A stretch of DNA of 55,370 nucleotides from an uncultured archaeon (lineage in GTDB: Archaea; Thermoplasmatota; Penumbrarchaeia; JASLWR01), in assembly GCA_964342815.1 (NCBI GenBank), contig CAYFHS010000026.1, forward strand, positions 1-55,370. The letters run 5' to 3'. Positions 1,280 through 38,368 of the stretch are shown piece after piece. The translations under genes and the position numbers were made by a program. The notes beneath the pieces were generated by a model. The model was given only the letters and a program-made list of their open reading frames with translations. It made no database searches and was not told the origin of the DNA. Positions within the stretch are counted from its first letter, which is position 1, and each line of letters starts with the position of its first letter.

Positions 1280-4200
1280 TCACTCCGCCTCTGAAATATC
1301 CGCGGTAGGCAATGCTCTTATTTCATCACCGGATTCAAGCAGGGGAAATCTCTTTTGTTCCAATTCCTGCATCAATGTTTCATTTACTGCAATAAACTGT
1401 ATTTCCGCGTTTTCGAAATCATTGGTTTTATACAACGAAATACCCTTCTCGTATTCGGTACGGAACTGGCCGATATCCAATCCCAATAACATACCTTCTT
1501 TGAATCCTGTGTTAATTGCATCATACAATTCCCTTGCCCTTGTTTCCGATTCATCGATTTCAGGTACGTTTACAGGTGTTTCCGTTACAGGATCGGGCTC
1601 CGCCTCAGGTCCCCCTGACGGCGGTATCTCTTCAAGAGATTCTTCAATTATTTCGACCTTTTCTTCTTTTATCGGTATTTCGACTGTAGTTTCCTCTTTT
1701 TCCGTGGTCTTTCTTCCTCTTCTCATGAAAGCGATGAGGAGAATTATAATTATAACCAATAACAGGGCCATAACACCCATCATCGCGAAACCAGTGGGTG
1801 AAGATAATAGATCGCTCGCTCCCGTTCCACCAACTCCACTGTTTCCATCGGTGTCATCATCCCCTTCTGTATCATCATCCCCTGCAGTATCGTCATCACC
1901 CGTGGTATCGTCATCCCCTGTTGTATCATCATCCCCTGTTGTATCATCATCCCCGGCGGTGTCGTCATCACCAGTAGTATCATCATCCCCGGTAGTGTCG
2001 TCATCCCCTGTTGTGTCATCGTCTCCGGTTGTGTCGTCATCACCAGTAGTATCATCATCCCCGGTAGTGTCGTCATCACCACTAGTGTCATCATCCCCGG
2101 TAGTGTCGTCATCATCTTCGCTCGGCTTTTCGGTAACTGTAATATTAACTACGTCGTTTTCTTCATTTCCCGCATCATCCAAAACTTTAAGCGTCACCTC
2201 GTAGATACCCGGAATATCGAATAAAAATGAAGGTTCGTCATCGAATAATTTTAGGTTACTCTTGTTATATCTGAATGACCACGTATAGTTAACAATCCCA
2301 ATATTGTCATCAGAAGCGCTACCGTCAAAGTATACAATGTCACCCTCTTCAATACTATCATCCGAACCTGCATCGGCGTTAGGGATGTCATTATCCGAAA
2401 CAACAATTTCTATCAGATCACCGGATTGGAAATTCCCTGATGTGTCCTCAACGCTTATCGTAAAACTTAAATTGGACGTATCATGGCCGAGAGTTTCGGT
2501 TTCGACCCAGTAACCGTTGTCCGGGATCAAAGAAATGTTCCTACCAAGTGTCCCGTGCTCCCAATCAACATATACCGTTTCCACTTCGATATTGTCCGTG
2601 GCCTGTACCTTGAATTGGAATTCGTCGCCTGTGGTCCCGGTCATATCGCTTTTATCGTTCAGTGTGGGCAAATCATTGTCCGTTACTCCTACGGTATGCA
2701 ATATTCCAGTTGCAAAGTTATCGGAACTGTCCTTTACGGATATGGTGTAAGTGAGATCCACAAGATCGTCGTCCAGTGTAATGGTAGAAGTCCAATATTC
2801 TCCCGAAAGAACCAGCGAAACGTTATCACTCGAATCGCCATGGACCCAATTTGCAAATACCGATCCAACTTTGATATTATCGATTGCGGTCACGTTGAAA
2901 GTGAACTGGTCATTTGTACTTCCTGTTGCTGCCGACAGGTCGGTAAAGGATGGGCTATCATTGTCGATGACGTTTACAGTTTTCAAGTTACTTATTTTCA
3001 AATTATTTGAGGAATCCACTACTGTTATCAAATAACTGAGATCTCCAATACTGTGATCGAGAATAATTGTTTTAGACCAGGAATTTCCCGTTTTCGCAAG
3101 TGTGATATTATCACCCAGGGCCCCCTGGGACCAATTCAGATAAACATCTGTTACCTGAATGTTGTCCGAAGCCGCAACGTCGAAAATGTAATTGTCGCCT
3201 GTTGTTCCAACGCCCGGGCTGTTGTCAGAGATCGTGGGTAGATCGTTATCAATAACATTTATTTTTTTATTTATGCTAATGTTGAAATTAGCGGCCTTAT
3301 CCCGGACATAGAGCTCGTAGGAAAGGGGATCAATACTATCATCCAATGTGATGGTTCCAGTCCAGATATTCCTATTCTTAGTTAACGAGAGGTTCCCCTT
3401 CTGAATCCCGTGGAACCAATTCGCGTGGACGAAGTTTACCCCGATATTGTCCGTAGCGGTAACTCTGAAAGTGAACTGATCACCCGTTGATCCCTCATTG
3501 GGTGATTGATCATCGAACGTAGGAATATCGTTATCGGAAACGCTTACTATTTTTTTGGCACTGATATTGTAGTTATTAAACGTGTCATTAACATAGCTGA
3601 CATAGCTAAGATCATTTATATCATGGGCCATAGAAATATTTCCGATCCAGTATCCGCTGGCCTTGTTCAACGAAAGATTCTGATTCAGATTTCCGTGCAT
3701 CCAATTGACAAATACCTTCCCCATTTTTATATTGTCCGAAGCGGTGAAGTTAAAGGTGAATAATTCACCGGTTGTACCGCTATTAGGGGTGCTATCCTTG
3801 TAGGTCGGAGGATCGTTATCGGTAACGTTGACGATTATCAAATTACTGATGTTATAATTATCGGAAGTATCGTTTGTATATATTGTATACGAAAGCGGTG
3901 AGAGATTGTCTTCAAGAGTTATATTTCCTATCCAGTAGCCGCTGGCCTTATCGAGGGAAAGATTTCTGCCGGAATTCCCATGAGACCAATTAACGTATAT
4001 TTTGTCCACTTCTATGTCATCCGAAGCATTTATCCTGAATGTGAATTTATCAGCAGTGGTTCCGGTGTTATTACTCCTATCGAGATATCCAGGACATACT
4101 GTGTCAGGGATGTTTTCTATAGAACATACCCAGAAATCATCAAGATACATATCCGTTCCCGTAGCCCTGAATTTGAAATCCGCGGTACAATAATATTCCT

Positions 4201-5317: not shown

Positions 5318-5614
5318 TTTCATAACCTCCAACTTGGGTTATTCATGTGAAATTTATTCCTTGTCGTTTTACTGGAATAACCCGACTAATAATAAGATTA
5401 TGAAAATGTTGAATAGTTATATATGTTTTATGAGTCTTTGTTATTTGACATCATGGAAAAACCATACCGATCAAATCATTTTTCGTTCTTCCCCGATCTC
5501 CAAGTTATAAGCGAATTTCAACTACACGTATGGGGAAATGCCATTGGAAGGAAAGGAAAAACATTAATAAGTCAATATCGATAATACATCATCGAGAGGT
5601 TTGGTGATACTTAC

Positions 5615-8600
5615 TTGAGATCAAATGCGATTATTGCTGCAATGGTCATCTTGCTTGCCAATTTCTTTATACTTTATACCGTACCCCAAGAGGTAACAGG
5701 GGAAACGCGCTATACTATAGAGGATTTCGGTTCCGGTGTTTCAAAAGGGCTTCCCAATACTGGAGATTACAACTGTATCGGCGTTGGAGACGTGAACGGC
5801 GACCAGGACATGGACATCATCTGTGGAGGTGAATCAAGCTATGGAAATCAACCCCGAACAGGTCTTTATGTCTTCACCGGTGACGGGACGGGAAACTGGG
5901 ATCAGATAAATCTAACGCTGTCCAACTCGTTTGCAGGTATAGAGGTGGCAGATTGCGACAATGACGGGCTTCAGGAGGTATATGCCGGTTATCAGGAGAA
6001 CAGTAACGGTATAGGGGCATGGGAATGGACCGGAACAGGGTTTGAACAAGCTGGAATAACATCTCCTCTGGGCTCGGGAGGAGTGAATTATCTCAGGATC
6101 CGCAATATGACGGGAGATGCCGGCCTGGATATGGCCATTGGCACCCATAACGGTGTCCGGTATTACCAGGGAAGCGGCAGTGCTCCCATATCATGGACCC
6201 AGTATTCCACCGGTTTGAGAAGCAACGGACTCTGCACCCAGATCGACGTGAACGATATAAACAACGACGGCCTATTGGATATCATAGTGGGACAGTATGG
6301 AGACGGGCTTTATATATTTACGCAGGACGCAGGGGGTATGTCCTGGACCGATCGGTCCTCGACGCTCCCGCCCGTAGAGCAGACCGGAAGGGTCCTTGGC
6401 CTGGTAACGGGTGACGTTAACAATGACGGAAACGTGGACATCGTTCTGAACAAGAGGACAAATCCATCCGGGTTATTCCTGCTCCTGGGGAACGGGGGGG
6501 GAGGTACGGGAGTCGATTTCCAGTGGACATATCTCAACAACTCCTGGCAGAACCGACCTATGGGAACATTCTATCAGAGCCATCTTGTGGATATTGATAT
6601 GGACGGTGACCTGGATCTATTAACGGCCAAGGAATCCACGGGACTTCACCTGTATCTCGGGAACGGTGCAGAGAATCCAGGCAACAATTTCGCATGGACC
6701 GAAGTGTTGGGCAAGGGGCTCCCCACAACGGATTTTTACACGGGAGCCAACTACCTCGATTTCGACAACGATGGGGACCTTGACGTGGCCGGATGCACCT
6801 ATGGCAACGGCATGATAGTCCTTGAGAACAATCTTACCCTACCTCATGTTCCCGTAGCACGGGCGGGACCGGACCAGACGATCAACCTGGGTGATACGAT
6901 ATACCTCGATGGTTCTAATTCCCGCGATCAGCAGGATTGTCCCGATGGGGATGACGGAGGAACCATTCTGACGTACCAGTGGAACATCAGTTCACAACCC
7001 GCCGATTCAACTCTTGTAGATGATGACCTGATCCCTTCCGATTCAGTATCAAGTCCTTCATTCATCCCAACTCACTCAGGAAATTATTATCTCACTCTGG
7101 CGGTAAAAGATACAGATGATCATTGGAGTGTTTCGGAGGACCAGATCAAAATAACGGTCATAGGGATCAACAATTTCCCCGTAGCCCATGCAGGAATAAA
7201 CCAGACCGTTCATTCGGGAAGCTTGGTGACTTTGGACGGTTCTGCATCAACCGATATGGACGAAGCGATTGAGATGCTAACTTTCGATTGGAATATATCA
7301 GCAGGAAATCCATCGCCGGTGACCCTGTCAGAAGAATCATCTATGTCGCCAACGTTCATGGCCCCGGATATTACCGGGGATTATCGATTTACATTGGCAG
7401 TTAGGGACTCTTTGGGAGCGTGGTCATCCGAGGACGAGGTAATAATCTCTGTGGAACTTCCAACAAATGTCAGACCTGTGGCGGATGCGGGGAGAGATTT
7501 CTCTGCTTATTCCAACAGGACGATCTTCCTAAACGGGAGAGCATCCCATGATCCTGACGGTAGCATCGTAACATGGGATTGGAACTGTTCCAGCCATTCT
7601 TCCATTACGATATCCGGAGTAAATTCATCAGATCCATGGTTCCAACCTAACAGAACAGGACAATATATATTCACCCTAACCGTCCGGGACGATAGAGGGG
7701 CATGGGCCAATGAAGACGGTGTAGTAATAACTGTGATTGAGGAGAACCGAGCTCCCGTAGCAAACGCCGGAATTGACTTTACAGCATATTATGATGAAAT
7801 GACTAGATTGAACGGTTCTGCTTCGATTGACAAAGAAGGTTACATACTATCGTGGGATTGGAACTGCACGAGTCATACTTCTGTGGTTTTGTCTGAAAAT
7901 AATTCATCTCTTCCAAGCTTCACGCCGGGTGAAGTTGACACATATATATTCTCCCTGCGGGTTATGGACGATCTGGGACTGTGGTCGAACACAGATACGG
8001 TTAACGTTACAGTGGTTGAACGTCCGATCAACCAGGTCCCGATTGCTCACGCGGGCAAGGACCATACTGTGAAGATAAACACCACAGTAGAGCTTTACGG
8101 AAATAATTCATATGATCTTGACGGGGAAATTGTATTGTGGGACTGGTACTGCTCCTCTCATCCGGGACTAGTATTCCAAGATGGAAACAGCAGAAACCCG
8201 TCATTCTTCGCGGGGGAAATCGGTACATACGAGATTATTCTGAAAGTATTTGATGACAGCGGAGATGGGTCGATTAAGGATACTGTTCTGATCACTGTGG
8301 TACCGGAGGATACCCAAATAGGGAACGGATTCGGTAATACTGCTCCCGTGATCTCGTTGACCTCACATAGAAATGTAGAGGTTTTGACTGGAATATCCAC
8401 CATCAGCTGGACAGCCGCGGACCATGACCTTGATCCACTATCCTTCTCGATATTTTTACTCGATCAGGAGGGGGTGGAAATAAAAACCCTTGTCGACGGA
8501 CTACCCTCGGAAAGCAGGACATGGGACTGGAATACTGCCCTACAGCCTGATGGATCCTATAGGCTAAAATTATTGGTGTCTGACGGGACGGATAATGCTC

Positions 8601-9046
8601 AATTTATATCAGATACATTCGAAATACACAATGAGGATGCGGGTACGAGGGAAAATCGCTCCAATTACGGTAAGGTGGTAATCTGGATCGGTGCGATTGT
8701 CCTGATATTGATAATTTTGGTGATGTTATTGATACTAATGAGATCGAGAAGGAATAAAAGAAACGAGGAATCAAAGGTCAGCAGGGATGATGAGAATCAG
8801 GATGATGAAGAATACCGATGGCGTGACTCTGGGAATAAGTATGGGGAAGCGAGTAGAAGGGATTATGAGCGCGTGCACCCTGGACGTAGGGAACGAAATT
8901 CAGACGAATCGATAGATCATTCGGGATGGAGGGATGAAGGATCAACTCAATACGACGATGAGATTGGTTGGGATGATGAGTGGACGGATGATGGTGATTG
9001 GAACGACGATGGGGAGTGGGAGGATGATTATTACGAGGAAGATTAG
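5615..9046 (+). CDS. FG-GAP (7-blade propeller) + 5 PKD-like domains + Ig-like domain, single TM, acidic/Trp-rich tail (paralog A)
   Basis: Seven DxN/DxDGxxD-type loops (GDVNGDQDMD ... DFDNDGDLD); five AxAGxD..L.GS.S.D repeats; TM VVIWIGAIVLILIILVMLLILM followed by RSRR; TTG start after GGTGAT. Confidence 0.9.
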   Translation: MRSNAIIAAMVILLANFFILYTVPQEVTGETRYTIEDFGSGVSKGLPNTGDYNCIGVGDVNGDQDMDIICGGESSYGNQPRTGLYVFTGDGTGNWDQINLTLSNSFAGIEVADCDNDGLQEVYAGYQENSNGIGAWEWTGTGFEQAGITSPLGSGGVNYLRIRNMTGDAGLDMAIGTHNGVRYYQGSGSAPISWTQYSTGLRSNGLCTQIDVNDINNDGLLDIIVGQYGDGLYIFTQDAGGMSWTDRSSTLPPVEQTGRVLGLVTGDVNNDGNVDIVLNKRTNPSGLFLLLGNGGGGTGVDFQWTYLNNSWQNRPMGTFYQSHLVDIDMDGDLDLLTAKESTGLHLYLGNGAENPGNNFAWTEVLGKGLPTTDFYTGANYLDFDNDGDLDVAGCTYGNGMIVLENNLTLPHVPVARAGPDQTINLGDTIYLDGSNSRDQQDCPDGDDGGTILTYQWNISSQPADSTLVDDDLIPSDSVSSPSFIPTHSGNYYLTLAVKDTDDHWSVSEDQIKITVIGINNFPVAHAGINQTVHSGSLVTLDGSASTDMDEAIEMLTFDWNISAGNPSPVTLSEESSMSPTFMAPDITGDYRFTLAVRDSLGAWSSEDEVIISVELPTNVRPVADAGRDFSAYSNRTIFLNGRASHDPDGSIVTWDWNCSSHSSITISGVNSSDPWFQPNRTGQYIFTLTVRDDRGAWANEDGVVITVIEENRAPVANAGIDFTAYYDEMTRLNGSASIDKEGYILSWDWNCTSHTSVVLSENNSSLPSFTPGEVDTYIFSLRVMDDLGLWSNTDTVNVTVVERPINQVPIAHAGKDHTVKINTTVELYGNNSYDLDGEIVLWDWYCSSHPGLVFQDGNSRNPSFFAGEIGTYEIILKVFDDSGDGSIKDTVLITVVPEDTQIGNGFGNTAPVISLTSHRNVEVLTGISTISWTAADHDLDPLSFSIFLLDQEGVEIKTLVDGLPSESRTWDWNTALQPDGSYRLKLLVSDGTDNAQFISDTFEIHNEDAGTRENRSNYGKVVIWIGAIVLILIILVMLLILMRSRRNKRNEESKVSRDDENQDDEEYRWRDSGNKYGEASRRDYERVHPGRRERNSDESIDHSGWRDEGSTQYDDEIGWDDEWTDDGDWNDDGEWEDDYYEED

Positions 9047-9185
9047 AACTTAATACAACTAAACTATTCTTATTCCCTTGAACCTGCCCGTCGAAATTAT
9101 CATTTACCCACTAATCAACCCAGGGGAGAGGGATTCCCATAATCAAGAGGAATATGCTTTTAGGGGAGAACTTATTTTATTACTT

Positions 9186-9461
9186 TTAGGCAATGCCATC
9201 CAATTCATATATCGGAAAATCCCCAAATAATAAAATCTTCAGCGTAAATTCGGTTCCCATCTCCAAACCTCGTATTTCTACTATATCGTTTTTCGTAAAA
9301 TATTCGTTATTGTCACTGTCATTGACGACCATATAAACTCTTGTCCGCTGCATGAGATCTACACCCAAAACAACGATTAAAACTATCAAGGTTAAGACAA
9401 GTAGTATCAAAGCACTTCTCGTCGGGTTGCGTACTTTCTCGGCAATAAAATTACTATGCAA
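9186..9461 (-). CDS. Small membrane-anchored hypothetical protein (91 aa)
   Basis: ATG ORF with one strong hydrophobic helix (ALILLVLTLIVLIVVLGV); fills an intergenic gap. Confidence 0.5.
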   Translation of the reverse strand: MHSNFIAEKVRNPTRSALILLVLTLIVLIVVLGVDLMQRTRVYMVVNDSDNNEYFTKNDIVEIRGLEMGTEFTLKILLFGDFPIYELDGIA

Positions 9462-9748
9462 AGTATCCTATTAATATCTTTCCCATACAATCCAAACCCA
9501 CATGTCGGATTTCTTACTATGGCGGAAATACCGAAGGGGATTTAATAATGAGAGATTAAAAGAGATTTTTTCCCACCGGACATTAACGCGGAACCTTTGG
9601 GATTGAATTCTTCTATTACTTAAACCAAGAAAACGTTATATCTTCGTGACACACTCACCGGACCTCTAATAACTCTGGAAAAGATGACAATCGTTCAGTG
9701 AAGTCGCTACACTTCACAGTACAAAAACCGGAAAAGGACGATAAATAT

Positions 9749-10255
9749 ATGACGACAAGCCCAGGAATAACAAAACGGCTGATCCATAATATACCGTATG
9801 CGGCCACCATCTTGCTGGGGGCCGTGGTGATATATTTTTCAATTGAAGATTCTTTTTTAAAACTTTTATTGTCAGGCGCATTCATCCTGTACGGTATATT
9901 GTCCACCTTGTGGTTCATGATGTTTTTGTGTGTTCACTGTCAGTCATACGGATCCCAAAAATGCCGATCCGGTTTCGGTCTTCTGGCGTCAAAATTGAGA
10001 GCGCGAGGCGATCCGACATTGTTCCGAAAAAAGTTCAAAATACATATCGCGGTAGTCGTTCCGTCGTGGTTCGTCCCTCTAATAATAGGTCTTATTTCGT
10101 TATATGACGAATTCACCTTTACAAAAATGTTCTTGCTCTCACTTTTCATGATAAATTCATTCGTTATACTGCCATTGGCCTCCAGAAACAAGGGATGCTC
10201 GGATTGCCCACAGAGATCGGACTGTCCCTGGATGAAGGACAAGGAACATACATAA
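9749..10255 (+). CDS. 4-TM membrane protein with two Cys clusters (CxxC-x7-C and CxxC-x5-C)
   Basis: Four hydrophobic segments; CVHCQSYGSQKC and CSDCPQRSDCPW. ATG 9749 preferred over the ORF-track GTG 9698. Confidence 0.75.
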   Translation: MTTSPGITKRLIHNIPYAATILLGAVVIYFSIEDSFLKLLLSGAFILYGILSTLWFMMFLCVHCQSYGSQKCRSGFGLLASKLRARGDPTLFRKKFKIHIAVVVPSWFVPLIIGLISLYDEFTFTKMFLLSLFMINSFVILPLASRNKGCSDCPQRSDCPWMKDKEHT

Positions 10256-10487: not shown

Positions 10488-13400
10488 ATGATGAACAATG
10501 ACGATCAATGGTTAAGATTGGCAGCTCTGTCCCTGGTTTTATGTATCATTGGCGGCAGCTGCGCGGTACTTATTGATGAATTTATTCCCAACACAGACAT
10601 CAACACAAGCTCTGAGGTAGAGAAAACTCCAGAAGTCCAGGGAAAATACGATTCAGATAAACGAGGTCAGCTGCATCCATTCAATCCAAGCCGGTGGTCC
10701 CCCGATTGGGTTCTTGTGACTTCAGGCGGTGTAGGGCGGTACTATGATAAACAACCCCGCCGCGATACCCAAAAAACACCTTTGTGGTATTATAATGATG
10801 CCATAAGCAAAGGAGGACGGATCCCGAAAGAACAGGAGCTGGTTGATTGGGGAAGCCAGTGGGGACGAAACAATATCGGCAGCAGTGCTGACGTCATGTA
10901 TGTCAAAACCGAGAACCCCTTGGACCTAAGATGGACCGATAGGCCCGGATGTAGGTGCGATCAAGATGTACAATTAAATGGCCGAATACCCACAGGAGGC
11001 GGGGGTGGGGTTATCTATCTTTGGGATACTCTGTACGCAAGTGTGGTCATGACGAAAGATACGGCTCTTACGGATCCCGGAAACCAGGAATATATTTGCT
11101 ACTCGGAGTACAGACCCTATAATATTAGCGTCAAGGTGGGTACGACAGATTTTTTAACCGACGCAAAGGAAATGAATCTTTACCTGGACTACAATCATAC
11201 AAATGCAACCCTGAATTACAACTGGATGAACCAGACCTTCTATAAAACCCAAGACCCCAACGGACACGTGGAAGTTCTTCTTGACAAATGCACTGTAGCT
11301 AATGATGGTGTGGAATTCTGGTGGTTAAATTTCACTGTCATCTTCAATTTCACTTTTCCACACGAACGCCTTGTAGATTGTTACGTCGAGACCCTTGCTA
11401 CTAATGGCGATAATTCACGGGATTTTTTCCCATGGCTTTTCCGGGTTGAGAACGATTTTGAAATGGAAGGTACCCCTGAGCTGGTTGGAGAGTATCAGGG
11501 AAAACTCGAAGAAGGAGATTGGATACAAGGTAACGAGACCATCACTCTTTCGAATCTCACTGTGAAGTACGCGGACACATTCAATATTTATCCCGATGAC
11601 CGTTATTTCGACGTCACCCTTACGGACACGGAAGGGAATATCTACTGGGACAACGAATCAAGCGGTGAAGAGGTGCAAATAGAGTTTCCGTCGAGAAATT
11701 TAACCGACCTAAGGGAAAAATATTACATAACCATCGAAAACCTTCCAGGGCGGGCCATTTGCATGAGCAATTTCACTTTTCCGGTAACTATCGATAACGA
11801 GGCACCTGCGGCACCCTTCAATGTGATTTGCCATGCCGACAGTTTCAGGGACAAAGAAACGGAAAATACAGACCAGACCGAAACCTTCGTAACCTGGGAA
11901 CCGGTGGAGGATTTTGAATCTCAATTATTGGGTTATTATTATTCTCTAACCGATAATTCTGGAACGGATAACGGGACGTTTCTAAATTTAACGGAAGTGC
12001 ATATTGAAAATCTTGACGAGGGAGATATCTCGATTTACGTCTGGAGTGTTGACAATGTCGGTAACATAGGTACTGCGTCTAGTTCGGGAATAAGAGTGGA
12101 TCTAACCCCACCTGTATTCAGTGATCTCATTCCCATGGATGGTTCCTGGTTCAATCATAGCGATATCGAATGTTCGGTGATAATTCAAGATCTCAACGGA
12201 TCCGGTGTTGACGCAAGTACCATCGAATACTCAATTTCTTCTCGCGGTTCCGGCGCTTTCGTCCAATGGATACCTGCTTGGCTGCCCTATGATCAGATTA
12301 CAGTGAATCCCACTGTGATATACAACTTCCCGGAGGGGGATACAAACTACATCAAGTGGAGGGCTAAGGACGTGTCGGAGAACGGATTTGTGGAATCGAA
12401 TCCCGTAAATGTTAAAGTTGACATTACCCCGGTTGAATTTGCCCCCGAGATCAGCCCACAGATCGAATGGTATAGCAAACACGAGATTACTTCGACGATA
12501 TTTATCAGTGACATTGGTTGTGGTGTTGATACTGATCGGATCGAGGTGCGGATTTCTACTACAGGTTCCAGTGATTTTGATCCGTGGTTACCTGTCGATC
12601 CGGAAAATATCACCTTAGCCCAGGATGGTTATGAGATTTCGGTCACCTTTCGTTATGCCGAAGGGAAAGATAACTATCTCATGTTCCGGGGAACGGATCT
12701 TGTAGGTAATCCTTATACCCAGTCTAAGAAATTTAACCTGAAGATCGACACAACTCCGGTTTATTTCAGTGATTTCAATATTGACGAAGACGATCCTCTC
12801 GAAGTTTGTGAAGTGGATTGTTTGATCATTATAAGGGATAACGGTTCCGGAGTGGAATCATCCTCAGTTGAATATTCCATTTCCACCGAAGGGGGCGATG
12901 AAAAATTTTTCTCACCCTGGAAAAAGGTTGCTAACGTGGTATCGGGAAATCCTACTCAGGCAACCTTACAGATCGAGTTCGAATGGGGGAGGGAGAATTA
13001 TATTAGATGGAGGGCTAACGACGTGCTGGACTCCGGTTACGGCTATTCCAAAACATACCAAATTTGGATCAATTCAGAACCGCAGGTGACAATCTCATCA
13101 CCCGAATCAAGAATCCTGGTTGACTCGAATGAGTTTGTTCTATTCGATGCAACACTCTGCGAAGATTATGACGGCGACAATCTGACTTTCTTCTGGTCCT
13201 CGAACATTGATCTGAACCGTTCGCTGGGAAATAGTTCACTGTTCAAGGCGAAACTTGCGGTGGGAAACCACAGCATCACTCTGTACGTGTCAGATGGTAA
13301 TGGCAACAATATCAGTAAAAAGTTCAAGGTAAATGTACGAGAAAAGGTTAATACACCGGTGAAACAAGGGCAGGACGAGGAAGGTATTTTTTCTGTCAGC

Positions 13401-14306
13401 AGTAGTGATGATTCTTTATTCTGGTTGATCATAGGGGGTGCTGGAGTATTATTATTGTTGATATTATTGATAATTTTCATTTTGATCGGAAAGAAAAAGA
13501 AGAAGAAAAAGTTAGCTGATGAGACCCTTTTACAGTCACAAATATCTCCAAGTTCATATTACGGACCACCTTCCTCCCCCTATCCCTATGGATATTATCA
13601 ACCTGGAGCTACTCAACAAGGGTATCAGCCGCAAGCTACAAATAATAACTTCGCGCCAGCTTTAGGATATGGTCAGGCCCAACCCAGGCCTATGCTACCT
13701 CCTGCATCAAGCACACAATACCCCCCTGCTCAACCATCTCAAATACCGTATTCCCCGAACGATCAAACGGTGGCTCAAATCCCGCAAAATTCGTCCTCCT
13801 CTACATTCGGACACACCGGTGATTTGTCCTATTCGCTTCCCATGTTCACAACCGAACAGGGAAACCAGAATCTGACCCGAATGGCCCTTCCGCCTGGCCC
13901 GGATGCCGTTGAACCAACCGATTTGTCCCAGGGAACGTATCCGCCACCTTCAGATGTTTCGTTACCCGGGATAGAAAACATTCAGTTCCAGGGAACCCAT
14001 CCACCTTCGCCCAATGTTCCGGATATTAATGCGATCCCGCCAATTCCACTGCAAGATACTTCCGCACCACCGGTGCCCACAGGATCTGAGCCTGACATTT
14101 CAGGAACCTTGGATGATATATTCAACGGAGCGCTTCTCGAAGGACTTCCGCCCCTCCCCGAAGCACCAACCCCCGAACCTAATGTTCAGGAAATAATGAT
14201 GCAGTGCCATTCTTGTGGAAACAGTTATCAGGCGAATATTTCTCAACTTCCCGCAGTAGTTACCTGCACACATTGCCAGACACAGGGCATGGTAGAGTCC
14301 TTGTAA
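10488..14306 (+). CDS. Giant single-pass surface protein, triplet paralog 1 (head, beta-sandwich body, FN3-like, Ig-like x3, PKD-like, TM, poly-K, Pro/Gln-rich tail, C-terminal zinc ribbon)
   Basis: Signal peptide; FN3-like APAAPFNV...TWE..GYYYSL; TM LFWLIIGGAGVLLLLILLIIFILIG followed by K7; terminal CHSC...CTHC. Start may be ATG 10491. Confidence 0.92.
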   Translation: MMNNDDQWLRLAALSLVLCIIGGSCAVLIDEFIPNTDINTSSEVEKTPEVQGKYDSDKRGQLHPFNPSRWSPDWVLVTSGGVGRYYDKQPRRDTQKTPLWYYNDAISKGGRIPKEQELVDWGSQWGRNNIGSSADVMYVKTENPLDLRWTDRPGCRCDQDVQLNGRIPTGGGGGVIYLWDTLYASVVMTKDTALTDPGNQEYICYSEYRPYNISVKVGTTDFLTDAKEMNLYLDYNHTNATLNYNWMNQTFYKTQDPNGHVEVLLDKCTVANDGVEFWWLNFTVIFNFTFPHERLVDCYVETLATNGDNSRDFFPWLFRVENDFEMEGTPELVGEYQGKLEEGDWIQGNETITLSNLTVKYADTFNIYPDDRYFDVTLTDTEGNIYWDNESSGEEVQIEFPSRNLTDLREKYYITIENLPGRAICMSNFTFPVTIDNEAPAAPFNVICHADSFRDKETENTDQTETFVTWEPVEDFESQLLGYYYSLTDNSGTDNGTFLNLTEVHIENLDEGDISIYVWSVDNVGNIGTASSSGIRVDLTPPVFSDLIPMDGSWFNHSDIECSVIIQDLNGSGVDASTIEYSISSRGSGAFVQWIPAWLPYDQITVNPTVIYNFPEGDTNYIKWRAKDVSENGFVESNPVNVKVDITPVEFAPEISPQIEWYSKHEITSTIFISDIGCGVDTDRIEVRISTTGSSDFDPWLPVDPENITLAQDGYEISVTFRYAEGKDNYLMFRGTDLVGNPYTQSKKFNLKIDTTPVYFSDFNIDEDDPLEVCEVDCLIIIRDNGSGVESSSVEYSISTEGGDEKFFSPWKKVANVVSGNPTQATLQIEFEWGRENYIRWRANDVLDSGYGYSKTYQIWINSEPQVTISSPESRILVDSNEFVLFDATLCEDYDGDNLTFFWSSNIDLNRSLGNSSLFKAKLAVGNHSITLYVSDGNGNNISKKFKVNVREKVNTPVKQGQDEEGIFSVSSSDDSLFWLIIGGAGVLLLLILLIIFILIGKKKKKKKLADETLLQSQISPSSYYGPPSSPYPYGYYQPGATQQGYQPQATNNNFAPALGYGQAQPRPMLPPASSTQYPPAQPSQIPYSPNDQTVAQIPQNSSSSTFGHTGDLSYSLPMFTTEQGNQNLTRMALPPGPDAVEPTDLSQGTYPPPSDVSLPGIENIQFQGTHPPSPNVPDINAIPPIPLQDTSAPPVPTGSEPDISGTLDDIFNGALLEGLPPLPEAPTPEPNVQEIMMQCHSCGNSYQANISQLPAVVTCTHCQTQGMVESL

Positions 14307-25200: not shown

Positions 25201-26145
25201 GCGACAGGTCTGGATACGGATATCAGAAGCTGGATTTGGGATACTTCAAATGTACCCGACGGGAGCTACCGGATCCGAATAAAGGTTTTCGATGGGATTA
25301 AAATAACCGAGGATACCTCCTCCCCTTTCACCATTGAAAAATCCAAAGACGATAATGATACCGAGGATGATGATATTACAGGTGATGATGATACTGCAGG
25401 GGATGACGATGCAACCGGAGATTCGGAAGAGGGAACGGGGACATTCTTTTCATCTACCACGGGAATCCTGATCATGGCAGGTATCGTTTTGGTTTTTTTT
25501 ATTATTGTTATAATATTGGCTCTGCTGCTTTACGGTAAGAAAAAGAAGGAAAAAAATGAAGAGGTAATAAAAGAAGTTTTTGAGGAAAAACCCATCGTGG
25601 AGGATGAATATTCGCAAAAAGATGAAGGTTGGGGCCCGAAAGACACCGGATGGGATCGCAAATCATTCCGTAATGAGGATTTTTCAGATGGTAAAGCGGA
25701 GGACTATGACGACTGGATGGAGGAAGATACTGATAGTGATTGGGAAGAGGACGGGTTTGGAACCTATAAAAGAAAATCACGGCATGGAAGATATGGAGCA
25801 GGGGTATTACTGTATCACGACACAAAGGTAGAAAAAAGGGGTGGCAAATACGACCGTGAGCACCGGGATGATTATGACTATACAAGAGATGATTTGGATG
25901 ATAACTATGAAGTTGATTTTTACAATGACGAAGCCGAAGAGAAAGATTACGACTATGAATATGACAATGATTTTAATAATGATCCGCATGACATTGATTT
26001 CAACAATGGATATGATGATGCAGACGAAACCAAAGAGAAGGATTTCGACAATAACGATAGTGATGACTATTTCTATTTTGATGACGATGATCAGTATGAT
26101 GAGGATGAATACGAATTTGACCAGTATGACGATTATGATGATTAA
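22300..26145 (+). CDS. FG-GAP (7-blade) + 5 PKD-like + Ig-like, short GDDDT stalk, TM, very long Asp/Tyr-rich tail (paralog B of 5615..9046)
   Basis: GGAGG 7 nt before TTG; seven FG-GAP loops and five PKD units aligned with paralog A; TM ILIMAGIVLVFFIIVIILALLLY followed by GKKKK. Confidence 0.9.
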   Translation: MKRKAVIITITLFLANISLLNLISVGNQGYPLDNFGSGVSTGLDANGNFNYIGVGNFNNDANMDMVYGSGQWSTGVTNTGLYAAAGNGAGTWTKSTITATDSFAGIAIADCDGDGSQEVYAGYEWRWAGAAANGVGAWEWNGAAFAAGGITSPINSGGVADIEVINVTGGPALDIVVGKQSGGLAYFEGNGVSPITWTSKSVGLLNSNECTAVDVDDINNDGLPDIVAGQYGGRGLHIYTQNAAGQLWTARTASLPAGAKSTSIMGAEVGDINNDGNSDIVYSTHGGGMRTLLGNGGGGTGVDFQWTIPTGGNSNGFPGNYGSNGDFPQMQLADIDFDGDLDLLAPKTSSGLYLFLGNGSEQPDDGFGWGLVSGKGLPVSGTYYGSNFIDFDNDNDLDIAGATWGSGVKVFETNLILPPHPIANAGSNQTVYLGDTVFLNGTNSTDAQDCLTGDPQGNILTYDWNITDQPQGSTLTDADLAPSDASAVVSFVPTQSGFYMLSLVVKDSEQQYSLFEDHVNITVIIDNSIPTANAGINQQVETGTTVILNGSASTDTEDAIGLLSFDWNVSGGNPSLVTLSDESVIMPTFIAPDTTGDYFFTLVVKDSLEAWSMEDEVKVTVELPPNIIPSAQAGVDFSAFSNTTVRLNGSGSQDSDGEIVTWDWNCTSHPSLPIENENSPLPSFTPNRSGQYTFTLTVLDDRGAWALEDEVIVNIIEENQPPEANAGVDFTAYFGEITHLNGSSSFDLEGQIVSWDWSCLNYPNTTFANGNSSTPSFTPEKVDIYQFTLKVMDDLGLWSHTDEVNITVIERIINIKPIANAGKDRMVHVNSTVILNGSRSNDPDGNISSWVWNCSSHDNLNFMYHDSAHPSFYAAEIGTYNISLAVVDELGTWSAEDHVSISVVSEDTNITDPLANAAPYVKLTSPRGGETILNTTGITWTASDVDLDTLSFTIELLNSSGGIVSILATGLDTDIRSWIWDTSNVPDGSYRIRIKVFDGIKITEDTSSPFTIEKSKDDNDTEDDDITGDDDTAGDDDATGDSEEGTGTFFSSTTGILIMAGIVLVFFIIVIILALLLYGKKKKEKNEEVIKEVFEEKPIVEDEYSQKDEGWGPKDTGWDRKSFRNEDFSDGKAEDYDDWMEEDTDSDWEEDGFGTYKRKSRHGRYGAGVLLYHDTKVEKRGGKYDREHRDDYDYTRDDLDDNYEVDFYNDEAEEKDYDYEYDNDFNNDPHDIDFNNGYDDADETKEKDFDNNDSDDYFYFDDDDQYDEDEYEFDQYDDYDD

Positions 26146-26412: not shown

Positions 26413-26760
26413 ATGAGAATAAACAGAATAGCAATCTTTGGTATCCTTGCGATATTTGTAACGTGTGCACTGTTTCAGAGCGTAGCTGCACAAGACGACG
26501 ATGCTGATTCGGACAGCGAAACTTCATCAAGTTGGACCGACAATATCGGAAACCATATTATTTCAACAGTTGTTTGGGTAGTGATTGGTCTTGTATTGAT
26601 ATTAGTTTTTGTTGGTTTAATTGATCTTGTAACCGATAAAATGAAACATAACTGGCTCAATCTTGAGGAAGTTGCTGGGAACCCTACAGCAATGGCCATA
26701 ATCGCAGCAGGCCTTATGATCGCAATAGCAATAATAATCCATGGCGCGGTCATATCATAA
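26413..26760 (+). CDS. DUF350-like small membrane protein with signal peptide
   Basis: GGAGG 7 nt upstream; two TM helices ending GNPTAMAIIAAGLMIAIAIIIHGAVIS, the typical DUF350 C-terminal pattern. Confidence 0.7.
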   Translation: MRINRIAIFGILAIFVTCALFQSVAAQDDDADSDSETSSSWTDNIGNHIISTVVWVVIGLVLILVFVGLIDLVTDKMKHNWLNLEEVAGNPTAMAIIAAGLMIAIAIIIHGAVIS

Positions 26761-26988: not shown

Positions 26989-29900
26989 ATGTTGATTCAA
27001 AACTGCAGGATAATGCCAGGATTTATTAAAACTTTGATAGCTATTGTAGTAATCATTTCATTACTCAACGGAATAATACCGATATCGGGAATCGGTCAAA
27101 ATGATTCGAGGATTGCATGTATAGACCCTGAATTGGAGATTCAACCAGTAAAGGAAGAGTTTACAACGGAGATAGATTCCTCCCATGAGAGGTCCGGGAG
27201 AAACTTGCTTTCCTTCAATACGGGAAAAGATACTTTCGTGTGCAATGATTTCGACATGAATGGATACAAGGAAATGAATTTCGGCGCCGAGGATACAATT
27301 TACGTGGCTTATGAGGACACTGCATACAATTATTTCCCTCCATTACGGGGTTTGATAAAATTCGATTTTTCTGGAATTCCTACAAATACAGAGATAATTT
27401 CCGCCAATATGAAATTATATTACGGGGAATCCATAGAAGGTGAGTCCGTACCCCTTGCCATAACCGCTTATCCTTTGACTTGTGATTGGGTCGAGGGTAC
27501 CGGCACATGGGAACAGTACGATGACAACGCTGTTAATTGGAAAACATACGACGGAAAAAATGCGTGGAATACACCAGGTGGAGATTATGATGATCAAATG
27601 GGAGTTGCGGCCACAACTCCTGGAAATTTCGGATGGGTCACATGGGATATAAAGAATATTTTCCAGGAATGGTCGGATGGGACCATTGAGAATCACGGAG
27701 TGATACTCATTTCCAAAACCGAGCCGACCCAACCAACTGTAAAATTGTTAAATTCATTCAACGGGGCCAATAATAAACCGGTTCTCGAGATCCGTTACAA
27801 CAAACCTCCCACAGCCATTATCGATTCAGTGGAACCTAATCCTGTAAAGGAGTTTCGAAACGTCACGTTTACCGGTCATGGGGATGATCCAGATGACGGG
27901 ACTACCAATTCTGGATTTATTTGGATGCTCAAGAATGATTACATCCCCACCATAGTGGTGGGCAATGAAGCCATAAGCACCGTGGACAATTTAACCCATG
28001 GTAGTTACGAGGTCTCCTTCCGTGTGAAAGACAATTTTGGTGTCTGGTCTCCTGACGTTACGTTGAATGAACCGTTGGTCGTCAGTGCTGATGAAGCTCC
28101 TGCTAAGATCGATGATCTTATAGCAGAGGCGCACGGGGGTCTTAGCGGCGCCATAAATCTCACTTGGAAGGCAGTGGCAGAGGATGGGCTTCGCGATGAT
28201 GGGAAGGCAAGCAGGTATATTATAAAATACTCCGATACTTATATGGATAGTCTAGCTTCCTTCAACAATGCCGAGGATCTCGACAGCATAATTGAAATCC
28301 CTGAGCCGAAGAAACCCGGGGGAAGAGAGGAAATTACCATTACCGGTTATAACAAGGGCAGTGAACATTTCTTTGCGGTGATTGCTGAGGATGAGAGAGG
28401 TCAGAGGAGCCCGATCTCGAACGTAGTAAGGGCAATTGCACCGGATCATAATCCGCCGGATGGTATCCTCGATCTAAATGCAGAATCGGGTAAGAGTGAT
28501 GGCGAGATAGACCTTATGTGGACTGCTCCGGGTGATGACGGTATCGATGGACAGGCACACAAATATCAGATCAAATGCTCGAAAGACCGGATACGCACGA
28601 TTTGGGATTTTTACTCGGCCGACGATGTTCCCAATAGTGACGAGGTCCCGTCTCCAAACCCTGCCGGCAGTCGCGAATCTTTTACAGTTACAGGATTAGA
28701 ACGCAGAGAAACATATTACTTTGCCATCAAGACCATGGACAAATGGGATAATATAGGCCCATTATCCAAAGTAGCTGAAGCCATGGCAACCGACAAGATG
28801 GCTCCTTCCATGGTCACTGGTGTCGTTGGCTTCGATACCCCTGATGATCTCGGACAGAGCATCACCATTAACTGGAATATTTCACCTGAAGAAGACCTTC
28901 ATCATTATTCAATCTACGTTGCCATGACACCCATCACAGATGTCAGCCTTATTACTCCGGTCAAAACCATTGATAAGAACCAAGGTACAAAGGCGATTAT
29001 CAGATCTCAGGATATGTCGCTGGTAGATCGGAGGGAATATTATGTAGCAGTCACTGCCGCGGACGACTACAATAACATGAAGACCGAAGTTATCTCTTAC
29101 GGGCCGATCATGTCCCTAAATAATCTGAAGAAAGCCCAACCACTCTTAGATCCTGAAAGAGGTACCACTTACGAAAATAAAGCTATAAGTGAAAATCCTG
29201 CAGTGGATATTGAGATCACTAAACTGGATGTTACAATCAACACAGAAGAGATCGACGACAAGTTCGTTAGTATCACTACATCGTACGAGATCGAGGGGAT
29301 TTCAACGGTCCCAGGGGATCAGATCGATCATATCGATGTCTACGATCACATGAGGGACGGTGAGGACGATTGGGATTGGTCGCCGCTCATGGATCAAGTC
29401 GCTGTCGAGGACCTGGATGATACGGAAACGGATTACGTTGATAAATTATATGAACTGTTCTTTCATCCCGATATTAGCCAAGATATCTGGTCACTGTCCT
29501 ACCAGTACTCTCGTATCGTCGAAAAAGAAGAACTGGCACTTCTGGGTATAGGCGAGAATCCTGAAAATTACGGTGTGAACCAGATATGCATAGTTACATG
29601 GACCGTAACAGCAGAATGGAATTATCTAGTGCAGGAATACGAACAAAAGGTAATCAGTACATGGGTGGATTCGGACAGGGACGGTCTGGCTGACAAATGG
29701 GAAGAAAAATATTTTGAAAGCATTACGAAATATTTTGCTCTCGATGATGCCGATGGGGACGGTTTTTCCAATTTATTGGAATTCCAAGAGAACTCAATAC
29801 CAACTGATGCGAATTCCTATCCTCAGGGTACGCCCGATAAGACAATAGTAGATCCGGTGAATAAAAAAAGTTCGGGACTGGAAGATAAAGGTTGGTTATT

Positions 29901-38368: not shown

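What the first reader, a model, noticed from the sequence alone, without database searches (positions are those of the whole stretch)
1280..38368. 37-kb island of eight giant receptor-like surface proteins built from shuffled modules
Eight genes (ORFs of 1350, 1143, 1272, 1287, 1268, 1281, 1387 and 2387 aa) all share one layout: signal peptide, sequon-rich beta-sandwich ectodomain, one TM helix, basic stop-transfer patch, then a cytoplasmic tail of roughly 100-400 aa. Archaeal S-layer and archaeosortase substrates normally end just after the TM helix; long structured tails are a receptor-like trait. No transporter, hydrolase operon or two-component gene lies in the island. Inference: a dedicated adhesion/sensing system.
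Basis: partly seen in the sequence, partly recalled or inferred. Interest (0 to 1): 0.78.

Follow-up and report, generated by a model that had tools for sequence, protein, structure and literature searches.

The report
Cluster of giant tailed archaeal surface proteins
Eight neighbouring genes of an uncultured marine Thermoplasmatota archaeon encode huge sugar-coated surface proteins that each cross the membrane once and end in a long tail inside the cell, but they are a local pile-up of a roughly 270-member genome-wide repertoire, not a self-contained system.

Summary
All eight ORFs are at the stated coordinates. Each has an N-terminal hydrophobic leader, a beta-rich ectodomain, one strong TM helix, a K/R patch and a 103-396 aa tail.

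The "dedicated system" reading does not hold. The genome (4.35 Mb, 89% complete) has about 273 such single-pass giants, 25% of its DNA. Of these, 195 have tails of 80 aa or more and most stand alone. This is its second-longest run. It comes largely from tandem duplication (G3-5 at 69-75% identity, G2/G6 at 53%). I found no shared upstream motif and no partner gene.

Synteny is kept in a congener (relative named Thermoplasmatota archaeon ETNP2_MAG_1). Only the G7/G8 pair is kept in another genus.

The tails are mostly disordered. G3-5 end in a conserved C4 zinc ribbon. G7 has a different zinc ribbon plus a helical domain. G3, G4, G5, G7 and G8 share an [LM]ALPP motif that is about 18-fold enriched in tails genome-wide.

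Sister proteins elsewhere in the genome carry Ser/Thr kinase, winged-helix or RING tails. The layout is therefore used for signalling in this genome, though none of these eight has such a domain.

Best reading: adhesin-type receptors whose tails dock an unknown cytoplasmic partner.

This scan has reported zinc-ribbon-tailed giants before, in this genome and in other Thermoplasmatota. I found no published description.

The parts
1280..5332 (-). G1, 1350 aa. Leader, ectodomain with a PKD domain (aa 981-1066) and an acidic Asp/Gly/Thr-rich stretch just before the membrane, TM at 1733-1789, 150-aa acidic tail at 1283-1732 with RALPT near its end.
   Evidence: Its ectodomain falls in the largest ectodomain cluster of the genome (34 members). 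Ortholog 88% identical in G001 and 57% in G003.
5615..9046 (+). G2, 1143 aa. FG-GAP repeats plus five PKD domains, TM at 8678-8734, 103-aa acidic W/Y-rich tail at 8735-9043.
   Evidence: It is 53% identical to G6 over the ectodomain only. Tail identity to orthologs is about 30%, which is compositional only.
9698..10255 (+). Small Cys-rich multi-pass membrane ORF (185 aa) between G2 and G3, with no family match.
10488..14306 (+). G3, 1272 aa, first gene of the tandem triplet. Variable head, all-beta stalk ending in a PKD-type domain, TM at 13425-13481, K-run, Pro/Gln/Tyr-rich tail at 13482-14303. Conserved Y-x-LP-x-F ... MALPPGP island at about 13830-13898 and a C-terminal C4 zinc ribbon at 14205-14276.
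14438..18301 (+). G4, 1287 aa, paralog of G3 (75% identity). TM at 17372-17428, tail at 17429-18298, zinc ribbon at 18200-18271.
18403..22209 (+). G5, 1268 aa, paralog of G3 and G4 (69-70% identity). TM at 21346-21402, tail at 21403-22206, zinc ribbon at 22108-22179.
22300..26145 (+). G6, 1281 aa, paralog of G2 (FG-GAP plus five PKD domains). TM at 25465-25521, 207-aa very acidic Tyr/Phe/Trp-rich tail at 25522-26142.
   Evidence: The G001 ortholog ectodomain is 83% identical, with a much shorter tail.
26413..26760 (+). Small membrane ORF (115 aa: leader plus two hydrophobic helices) between G6 and G7.
26989..31152 (+). G7, 1387 aa. DNRLRE domain, fn3, TM at 29905-29961, tail at 29962-31149. 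The tail holds a type-B zinc ribbon (30127-30192), an FLALPPHL motif, a confidently modelled helical domain (about 30334-30735) and an acidic repeat end.
31205..38368 (-). G8, 2387 aa. CARDB, three MAM domains, Big_5, two CarboxypepD_reg domains, 71 sequons, TM at 31793-31849, tail at 31208-31792. The tail has three RGPPGPP repeats, an LLALPP motif and a basic RKVVRRKVV end.

Best explanation
What it is: a local concentration of eight genes for giant, probably N-glycosylated, type-I membrane proteins. Each has a ligand-binding ectodomain outside, one TM helix and a cytoplasmic tail. They belong to five unrelated ectodomain families. The host is a marine Thermoplasmatota archaeon that devotes about a quarter of its DNA to roughly 270 proteins of this layout.

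How the cluster arose: by tandem duplication (G3-5, G2/G6) and juxtaposition. It is not a multi-component machine.

Ectodomains (shown): chains of Ig/FN3/PKD-like sandwiches carrying FG-GAP, MAM, DNRLRE or unannotated heads.

Tails (shown): inside the cell, largely disordered, carrying small conserved elements. These are a C-terminal C4 zinc ribbon in G3-5, a different zinc ribbon plus a helical domain in G7, and an [LM]ALPP motif about 110-135 residues after the membrane in G3, G4, G5, G7 and G8.

Function (inferred): the ectodomains bind particles, polymers or other cells. The tail elements are docking sites for one or a few unknown cytoplasmic partners that cluster, anchor, sort or signal from the occupied adhesin. 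The logic resembles the ZnR-linker switch of bacterial GltJ or an integrin tail. G2 and G6, with acidic aromatic tails, and G1 may use another partner or none.
For: Layout and topology.

Genome-wide census: 296 ORFs of 1000 aa or more; 273 single-TM giants covering 24.8% of the bases; 195 with tails of 80 aa or more.

Paralogy.

Ectodomain folds.

Selection on the triplet: dN is 0.15-0.22 in the zinc ribbon and 0.08-0.11 in the stalk, against 0.43-0.57 in the middle of the tail, with dS saturated. Twelve invariant columns in the 40-residue ribbon across 11 copies from four genomes.

Tail modules recombine with ectodomains. Type-B ribbons sit on at least 11 ectodomain clusters. The G8 ortholog in G002 has a type-B ribbon where G8 has none.

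The type-B ribbon also forms six tandem repeats in a leaderless soluble protein that is conserved across the class, so it is a cytoplasmic module.

ALPP motif: 42 copies in 50.6 kaa of tails, against 1 in 304 kaa of ectodomains; shuffles give 2.3 +/- 1.6. Outside the G3-type family: 15 observed against 1.4 +/- 1.2. The motif is kept in G7 and G8 orthologs of two other genera and in metagenome homologs.

Sister proteins with the same layout carry Pkinase (126-157 bits), tandem wHTH and zf-RING_2 tails.

An STT3/AglB homolog is present, consistent with the sequon enrichment.

GltJ precedent for a ZnR + disordered linker + linear motif acting as a switch: PMC11135422.
Against: No partner has been identified. 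No Roadblock/MglB, GYF, GYF_2 or SH3_1 domain was found. No tail in the window has a catalytic or DNA-binding domain. The tails of G2 and G6 are conserved only in composition. The zinc ribbons fall below the family thresholds: TIGR02098 scores 15.6-16.0 bits against a cut-off of 20.9. The G7 helical domain matches only generic helical bundles. There is no expression or localisation data. The census rests on a simple hydropathy rule, not a trained predictor. Much of the ALPP signal comes from one paralog family.
Confidence: 0.6

Rival explanations
1. Passive surface coat. The eight proteins are structural glycocalyx or S-layer-substitute components. The tails serve only as membrane anchors, spacers or retention and stability signals, with no information passing inward.
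For: The proteins are extremely abundant and diverse, covering 25% of the genome. Sequon load is heavy. Most tail sequence is low-complexity. The G2/G6 tails drift freely. The island tails have no signalling domain.
Against: Thirty-five giants in the same genome manage with tails of 30 aa or less, so long tails are not needed for anchoring. The ribbon and the ALPP motif are conserved far above their surroundings. The same layout carries kinases and wHTH domains in sister proteins.
Confidence: 0.22
2. One reading: the 37-kb island is a dedicated, co-operating adhesion/sensing system whose eight members act together.
For: It is the second-longest run of such genes in the genome, against a chance expectation of a longest run of 2.4. 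The order G3-like/G6/G7/G8 is kept in the congener G001, and G7/G8/DUF531 is kept in G003. Five of the eight share the ALPP motif.
Against: Similar genes occur on most contigs, and 108 stand alone. Five of the eight are recent paralogs. G1-G6 homologs lie on other contigs in G003. There is no shared upstream motif and no accessory, regulatory or export gene. The ALPP motif and both ribbon types are genome-wide, not specific to the island.
Confidence: 0.08
3. Proteolytic release. After ligand binding the tail is cut off at or near the membrane, and the released zinc-ribbon fragment acts in the cytoplasm, for example on nucleic acid, in the manner of Notch or of membrane-tethered transcription factors.
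For: Zinc ribbons are common nucleic-acid and transcription-factor modules (general knowledge). Eight sister proteins carry true wHTH tails. ALPP could equally be a processing site.
Against: No protease gene is linked to the island. The ribbons give no significant match to TFIIB or TFS-type families. The ALPP motif lies more than 100 residues from the membrane.
Confidence: 0.06
4. Artefact: mis-assembly of repeats or decaying pseudogenes.
For: The source is a MAG of 116 contigs. Relatives' assemblies break inside G1 and G7.
Against: All eight frames are open over 1143-2387 codons. Full-length homologs of matching length occur in independent NCBI, ENA and JGI assemblies. The same gene order is seen on G001 contigs. 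dN is far below the saturated dS.
Confidence: 0.02

Closest known systems
GltJ of the Myxococcus xanthus Agl-Glt focal-adhesion machinery (PMC11135422) and ZitP of Caulobacter (PMC5182065, PDB 2nb9)
   Same: Both are single-pass membrane proteins whose cytoplasmic part is a small C4 zinc ribbon joined to a long disordered linker. In GltJ the linker carries a short conserved binding motif, and the ribbon and linker act as a protein-docking switch.
   Different: In GltJ and ZitP the ribbon is N-terminal, so the orientation is opposite. Their external parts are small, and they are bacterial. Here the ribbon is C-terminal on giant glycoprotein ectodomains. The MJ0042-type model is hit only below threshold. 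The profile match to 2nb9 is not significant (E 0.07). No MglB/Roadblock or GYF domain was found.
Integrin alpha subunits and other metazoan type-I adhesion receptors (DSCAM, contactins, RPTP-sigma)
   Same: Type-I topology. G2/G6 have FG-GAP repeats on a leg of Ig-like domains. G3 is a string of Ig/FN3-like domains whose best Foldseek matches include DSCAM, contactin-2 and RPTP-sigma. The tails lack enzymatic domains and would work through adaptors.
   Different: No Integrin_alpha2 leg domains (PKD domains take their place). No GFFKR-type tail motif. No beta-subunit candidate was sought. The tails here are 103-396 aa with zinc ribbons. The resemblance is by architecture and fold class only, at 8-13% identity.
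Bacterial and archaeal giant Ig/PKD-repeat adhesins (for example GhpA of Aureispira, PDB 9fly/9flp; PKD-rich surface proteins of methanogens)
   Same: Very long beta-sandwich chains with PKD, Big, CARDB and fn3 domains exposed on the cell surface.
   Different: As far as I know, those proteins are secreted, cell-wall or outer-membrane anchored, or end shortly after a C-terminal anchor. A long conserved cytoplasmic tail is not part of their description.
Archaeosortase (PGF-CTERM) substrates and archaeal S-layer glycoproteins
   Same: Large, sequon-rich archaeal surface glycoproteins with a C-terminal hydrophobic helix.
   Different: Those proteins end a few basic residues after the helix. These continue for 103-396 residues. 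No exosortase-family gene was detected in this 89%-complete genome, although the model used is insensitive.
Receptor-like Ser/Thr kinases and transmembrane transcription regulators of the same genome (L025-L031)
   Same: Identical layout of giant ectodomain, one TM helix, K/R patch and tail. At least one of the kinases also has the ALPP motif.
   Different: Their tails hold Pkinase or tandem wHTH domains. None of the eight island tails does.

Membership tests
MJ0042-type zinc ribbon (TIGR02098; ZitP/GltJ class) | Match to the family model above its curated cut-off | tested here: inconclusive
   G3 scores 15.6 bits and G5 16.0 bits against a cut-off of 20.9, and G4 gives no hit. Pfam Zn_ribbon_4 scores 12.7-13.2 against 30.3. 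A sister tail on another contig (L024) passes at 37.8 bits.
MJ0042-type zinc ribbon (TIGR02098; ZitP/GltJ class) | Four Cys in two CxxC knuckles about 18-20 residues apart | tested here: met
   The pattern CHSCG...(18)...CxxC is invariant in 11 copies from four genomes.
MJ0042-type zinc ribbon (TIGR02098; ZitP/GltJ class) | Detectable sequence similarity to the solved ZitP ribbon (2nb9) | tested here: inconclusive
   The profile of A3 against PDB gives E 0.07 and 15.9 bits, with the two knuckles aligned separately.
GltJ-like ZnR-linker switch | Cytoplasmic ribbon plus disordered linker with a conserved short motif on a single-pass membrane protein | tested here: met
   The G3-5 tails have a K-run, a P/Q/Y-rich linker, a conserved Y-x-LP-x-F...MALPP island and a terminal ribbon.
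GltJ-like ZnR-linker switch | Partners of the MglA/MglB (Ras-like GTPase / Roadblock) and GYF type encoded in the genome | tested here: inconclusive
   One Ras-family GTPase was found (122 bits). No Robl_LC7, GYF or GYF_2 hit was found in an 89%-complete genome.
Integrin alpha-like receptor (G2, G6) | FG-GAP repeats of a beta-propeller head | tested here: met
   FG-GAP_3 scores 84.3 bits (4 stretches) in G2 and 70.8 bits (5 stretches) in G6.
Integrin alpha-like receptor (G2, G6) | Integrin leg domains (Integrin_alpha2) and a GFFKR-type membrane-proximal tail motif | tested here: not met
   No Integrin_alpha2 hit; five PKD domains take their place. The tails start LMRSRRNKR and LLLYGKKKK.
Archaeosortase / PGF-CTERM substrate | Protein ends within a few basic residues of the C-terminal helix, preceded by a PGF motif | tested here: not met
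   Tails are 103-396 aa, with no PGF motif before the helix.
Receptor Ser/Thr kinase | Protein kinase domain in the cytoplasmic part | tested here: not met
   No Pkinase hit in any of the eight tails at E up to 1. Four sister proteins tested give 126-157 bits.
Transmembrane transcription regulator | DNA-binding (wHTH) domain in the cytoplasmic part | tested here: not met
   No HTH hit in the eight tails. Three sister proteins tested have tandem HTH_24 / HTH_HVO_0163_N domains.
PKD-domain surface adhesin | PKD domains in the ectodomain | tested here: met
   G1 52.5 bits, G2 129.7 bits and G6 117.5 bits for PKD_4. The membrane-proximal domain of the G3 family matches KIAA0319L and collagenase PKD structures at E 6e-7. 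No PKD domain was found in G7 or G8.
Type-I membrane topology (N-out ectodomain, C-in tail) | Positive-inside rule; glycosylation sites outside only; tail modules of cytoplasmic type | tested here: met
   K/R counts are 3-8 after the helix against 0-3 before it, and sequon enrichment is confined to the ectodomains. The tails carry Cys4 ribbons. The same ribbon type occurs in a leaderless soluble protein. Cleavage of the leader was not testable.

The most novel reading that the evidence does not exclude
The [LM]ALPP motif, together with the terminal or juxtamembrane zinc ribbons, is a common cytoplasmic 'docking code'. Dozens of different giant adhesins, five of the eight here, would plug into one still unknown intracellular adaptor or cortical scaffold through it. 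The leaderless six-ribbon protein is one candidate component. The archaeon would then have an integrin/focal-adhesion-like outside-in coupling system built from parts unrelated to the eukaryotic and myxobacterial ones.
Probability: 0.25. Interest if true: 0.85.

Novelty: new variant of a known kind. Interest (0 to 1): 0.58.

Why it matters
Archaeal surface proteins are usually treated as passive coats that end at the membrane. This marine Thermoplasmatota archaeon spends a quarter of its genome on single-pass surface giants. Their inner tails carry conserved zinc ribbons, a shared proline motif and, in sister proteins, kinases, DNA-binding domains or RING fingers. This suggests a very large receptor repertoire in an archaeon, with the same topology as animal and plant receptors.

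If the tails do dock a common partner, that would open a testable route to how wall-less or lightly walled archaea sense and hold on to particles in the ocean. It would also define several unannotated domain and motif families. For this particular island the lesson is more modest: it is a duplication-rich hotspot of that repertoire, not a separate machine.

Tried and rejected
- **Phase variation or frameshifting at the K-run after the TM.** The lysines are encoded with interspersed AAG codons and the A-runs are only 4-7 long. The only run of 9 or more in the window is T9 at 54568. Rejected.
- **Shared promoter or regulatory motif.** No 8-mer is shared by three or more of the eight upstream regions.
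- **Known fold for the G7 tail helical domain.** Foldseek found nothing at E below 0.7. The best full-length VIA matches, EzrA 4uy3 (Z 10.2) and BB0323 6rjw (Z 10.5), are in the range the tool calls uninformative for helical bundles. It is a lineage-restricted domain, seen in 14 clusters out of 1.84 billion.
- **G1's tail sharing the G7 helical domain.** An iterated HMM found only three members, and G1 is not among them.
- **Direct sequence hits.** The G3 sequence against PDB gave none. ESM Atlas gave nothing usable for G3 and only sub-0.9 leads for the G7 tail.
- **Pfam and NCBIfam on the island tails.** Nothing was significant.
- **Candidate proline-motif readers and MglB-like partners.** Robl_LC7, GYF, GYF_2 and SH3_1 were not found. 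These are short models searched against an incomplete genome, so the negatives are weak.
- **Archaeosortase.** Not found with PF09721, but the control shows that this model is insensitive.
- **Literature.** No paper in the held library describes zinc-ribbon-tailed archaeal surface giants or archaeal type-I receptor kinases. The source paper of the ETNP MAGs does not list the relative by name.
- **My first regular expression for the type-A ribbon** matched nothing. I used the BLAST-based tail families instead.
Full report

I call them G1 (1280-5332, minus strand), G2 (5615-9046), G3 (10488-14306), G4 (14438-18301), G5 (18403-22209), G6 (22300-26145), G7 (26989-31152) and G8 (31205-38368, minus strand).

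Each has an N-terminal hydrophobic segment and one very hydrophobic 19-residue window near the C-terminus (Kyte-Doolittle 3.1-3.8). The remaining tails are 150, 103, 274, 290, 268, 207, 396 and 195 residues.

The 15 residues after the helix hold 3-8 Lys/Arg, against 0-3 in the 15 before it. N-x-S/T sequons run at about twice the compositional expectation in seven ectodomains; G8 has 71 against 28.7 expected. They are at or below expectation in every tail. G7 is the sequon-poor exception. An STT3/AglB homolog is present in the genome.

Between the eight genes there are only two small membrane ORFs, at 9698-10255 and 26413-26760. The flanks are housekeeping genes: DUF531, class-II aldolase, FBPase, aconitase and isocitrate dehydrogenase. 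A tRNA-Thr with an integrase lies 13 kb further on.

**2. What the ectodomains are**

- G2 and G6 are paralogs, 53% identical over the ectodomain only. Each has FG-GAP repeats followed by five PKD domains.
- G1 has a PKD domain. Its ectodomain belongs to the largest ectodomain cluster of the genome, 34 members.
- G7 has a DNRLRE domain (87 bits) and an fn3 domain.
- G8 has CARDB, three InhA-type MAM domains, Big_5 and two CarboxypepD_reg domains.
- G3, G4 and G5 are a tandem triplet, 69-75% identical over their full length, with no Pfam hit.

An AlphaFold model of G3 residues 30-1000 was built on 41 homologs (mean pLDDT 82). It shows a small alpha/beta head, a long all-beta chain and the TM helix. 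Its Foldseek matches are strings of Ig/FN3 domains: titin/MyBP-C, DSCAM, GhpA, contactin-2 and RPTP-sigma, at 8-13% identity. A profile of the family identifies the membrane-proximal domain as PKD-type (E 6e-7 to KIAA0319L and collagenase PKD).

"Beta-sandwich ectodomain" is therefore correct. "Shuffled modules" is only weakly true inside the window: PKD-type domains are the one module shared across families, and the rest of the similarity is paralogy.

**3. Organism and relatives**

The window is a whole contig of a 4.35-Mb, 116-contig, 89%-complete genome. Its congener is titled "Thermoplasmatota archaeon isolate ETNP2_MAG_1". Database homologs of G3 are all unnamed hypothetical proteins of Thermoplasmatota MAGs. 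The G3-type stalk occurs in multiple copies in all 36 same-class genomes searched.

**4. The island in its genome**

Scanning all six frames gave 296 ORFs of 1000 aa or more. A simple hydropathy rule found 273 proteins of 700 aa or more with a single strong C-proximal helix. Together they make up 24.8% of the bases. Of these, 195 have tails of 80 aa or more and 35 have tails of 30 aa or less.

Of the 195 long-tailed genes, 108 stand alone and 24 are in pairs. There are five triples, then runs of 6 (contig 10), 8 (this window) and 10 (contig 1). Random ordering gives a mean longest run of 2.4. Clustering is therefore real. However, the two other long runs are tandem arrays of G3-type paralogs, and five of the eight genes here are also paralogs.

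I found no shared upstream 8-mer. The genes have separate AT-rich upstream regions.

Synteny:
- In the congener, contig 146 carries [G3-like][G3-like][G6-like][start of G7], and contig 150 carries [end of G7][G8]. This is the same order and orientation as in the window.
- In another genus of the family (G003) only the convergent G7/G8 pair next to the DUF531 gene is kept. G1-, G2- and G3-like genes lie on other contigs.

I conclude that the island is a duplication-prone hotspot of a genome-wide repertoire, not a dedicated system.

**5. The tails**

Composition is low-complexity throughout:
- Pro/Gln/Tyr-rich in G3-5.
- Very acidic with Trp/Tyr/Phe in G2 and G6.
- Acidic and Pro-rich in G1, G7 and G8.

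No Pfam or NCBIfam family is significant on any island tail. Three kinds of conserved element do stand out.

*(a) A C-terminal C4 zinc ribbon in G3-5.* The consensus is MQCHSCG-x-Y-x5-LPA-x-VTC-x2-CQTQG. Twelve of its 40 columns are invariant in 11 copies from four genomes. In the triplet, dN is 0.15-0.22 in the ribbon and 0.08-0.11 in the stalk. It is 0.43-0.57 in the middle of the tail and 0.21-0.57 in the head. dS is saturated. The ribbon resembles MJ0042-type ribbons only below threshold and has no significant PDB relative. In this genome about 30 proteins share this tail. It is expanded only in this family of genomes, at 10-19 hits each, with single hits elsewhere in the class. More distant G3-type proteins of other Thermoplasmatota also end in a C4 ribbon.

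*(b) A second ribbon in G7, 56 residues after the membrane.* Its form is C-x2-CG-x(9-10)-WYC-x2-C, which I call type B. It is followed by a disordered linker and a confidently modelled pair of helical bundles with pLDDT above 90. The helical domain is rare, seen in 14 clusters out of 1.84 billion representatives, nearly all inside giant proteins. It matches only generic helical folds. The type-B ribbon gives 27 hits in this genome and 21, 8 and 11 in the family's other genomes. It sits on at least 11 different ectodomain clusters. It also forms six tandem repeats in a leaderless soluble protein of about 480 aa that is conserved across the class. That protein is good evidence that the ribbon works in the cytoplasm.

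*(c) A short motif, [LM]ALPP followed by small or acidic residues.* It occurs in G3, G4, G5, G7 and G8, at 107-135 residues after the TM; G1 has RALPT. Genome-wide counts:

| Region | ALPP copies | Residues scanned |
|---|---|---|
| Tails | 42 (in 36 proteins) | 50.6 kaa |
| Ectodomains | 1 | 304 kaa |
| Other large ORFs | 8 | 562 kaa |
| Shuffled tails | 2.3 +/- 1.6 | same as tails |

Outside the G3-type family there are still 15 copies, against 1.4 +/- 1.2 expected. It is kept in G7 and G8 orthologs of two other genera and in metagenome homologs of G7, while the flanking sequence changes. It also occurs in RING-type tails and in a receptor kinase.

Tail identity to orthologs is 59% (G7) and 54% (G8) in the congener, where the ectodomains are 74% identical. 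G2 and G6 tails are conserved only in composition. The G8 ortholog in G002 carries a type-B ribbon that G8 lacks, which shows tail swapping.

**6. Context that bears on "receptor-like"**

Other giants of the same layout in this genome have tails with bona fide domains:

| Tail domain | Evidence | Approximate family size |
|---|---|---|
| Pkinase | 126-157 bits, four of four tested | 9 |
| Tandem winged-helix | three of three tested | 8 |
| zf-RING_2 | above cut-off | about 10 |
| PPDK_N + double zinc ribbon | one protein | - |
| Canonical DZR / Zn_ribbon_1/3/4 arrays | several proteins | - |

In all, 86 of 208 tails have a CxxC...CxxC pattern. The layout is therefore demonstrably used for transmembrane signalling in this organism, with the type-I orientation of animal and plant receptors. 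None of the eight island proteins has such an output domain.

**7. Mechanism**

Shown:
- Type-I topology, by the positive-inside rule, the sequon distribution and the cytoplasmic-type tail modules.
- Adhesin-type ectodomains.
- Conserved ribbon and motif islands in otherwise drifting tails.
- Recombination of tail modules with ectodomains.

Inferred: the ectodomains bind particles, polymers or cells, and the ribbon and ALPP elements dock cytoplasmic partner(s).

The closest worked-out analogue is GltJ. There an N-terminal ribbon folds back on a motif in a disordered linker, and binding of a GTPase releases it to recruit another protein (PMC11135422).

I could not find the partner. One Ras-family GTPase exists. 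No Roadblock, GYF, GYF_2 or SH3_1 domain was detected. These negatives are weak, because the models are short and the genome is incomplete.

**8. Comparison with the known, and novelty**

The proteins share an architectural logic with integrins and other type-I adhesion receptors, and with the GltJ/ZitP ribbon-linker modules. They fail or are inconclusive on the defining tests of each family (see the membership table). They are not archaeosortase-type substrates.

I found no paper in the held library that describes zinc-ribbon-tailed archaeal surface giants or the ALPP motif.

This scan has already reported the phenomenon, both elsewhere in this genome and in other Thermoplasmatota.
- the census and run statistics;
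- the synteny test;
- the type-B ribbon and its soluble six-repeat relative;
- the G7 helical domain;
- the ALPP motif.

I rate the finding a new variant of a known kind: single-pass adhesion receptors with adaptor-docking tails.

**9. Caveats**

- The census uses a hydropathy threshold and first-start ORFs, so the counts are approximate.
- Cleavage of the leaders is untested.
- Start codons of G1, G2 and G6 (TTG) are only the first possible ones.
- No expression data exist.
- Paralogs are not independent, so the ALPP enrichment is best judged from the value outside the G3-type family.

Noticed in passing
G000 contigs C8:38689-41601, C49:9384-15014, C20:54680-62932, C5:120256-122787 (L025-L028): Giant type-I proteins whose cytoplasmic tails hold intact Hanks-type protein kinase domains (Pkinase 126-157 bits). 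The BLAST tail family has nine members. The orientation is that of eukaryotic receptor kinases, not of bacterial PknB.
   Followed up: partly
G000 C19:68608-72477, C11:82920-86048, C2:90176-94615 (L029-L031): Giant ectodomain, one TM helix and two tandem winged-helix DNA-binding domains in the tail. These are candidate membrane-tethered transcription regulators, in a family of about eight.
   Followed up: partly
G000 C25:49074-55019 and C1:288748-293916 (L015, L021); also C28:42597, C29:7174, C24:31027 (L032-L034): Tails with one to three RING-type fingers (zf-RING_2 above cut-off). Some members also have a segment that looks Roadblock/longin-like but gives no Pfam hit.
   Followed up: partly
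G000 C3:11767-13212 (L044): A leaderless soluble protein: a helical N-domain followed by six tandem type-B zinc ribbons separated by Ala/Pro/Glu/Lys linkers. Orthologs of 480-534 aa occur in G001, G002, G007 and G012. It is a candidate cytoplasmic scaffold related to the ribbon in the G7 tail.
   Followed up: partly
G000, 12 short or juxtamembrane tails (e.g. C1:60083-63427, C2:308861-312001, C13:37329-40388): An acidic [DE]-x-[LFM]-G-R-[VI] motif 10-20 residues after the TM helix. It occurs at 0.26 per kaa in tails against 0.06 in ectodomains. None of the eight island proteins has it.
   Followed up: no
G000 C17:43835-45160: The only STT3/AglB oligosaccharyltransferase match (74 bits) lies inside a 2846-aa open frame. 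This suggests an unusually large or fused AglB.
   Followed up: no
G000 C14:63484-63972: A single strong Ras-family small GTPase (122 bits, 201-aa frame). It lies on a contig that also carries giants at 46488-51317 and 68898-71057.
   Followed up: no
G002:C23 (L050), ortholog of G8: This ortholog (43% identical ectodomain) has a type-B zinc ribbon in its tail where G8 has Pro-rich repeats. Tails have been exchanged between orthologs.
   Followed up: partly
window 51794-53162: A tRNA-Thr(UGU) is followed 63 nt later by a tyrosine integrase with a C-terminal zinc ribbon. This is probably the edge of an integrated element. It is 13 kb from the island and shows no link to it.
   Followed up: no
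window 9698-10255 and 26413-26760: Two small membrane ORFs sit inside the island (185 aa, Cys-rich, multi-pass; 115 aa with a leader and two helices). The first has no family match; the second was not searched against any family library. Whether they are expressed or related to the giants is unknown.
   Followed up: no
G003:C94:5533-6426 and G001:C146:9995-11320: Homologs of G1 and of the G3-type genes in relatives contain single in-frame TGA codons. These could be pseudogenisation, sequencing error or recoding.
   Followed up: no
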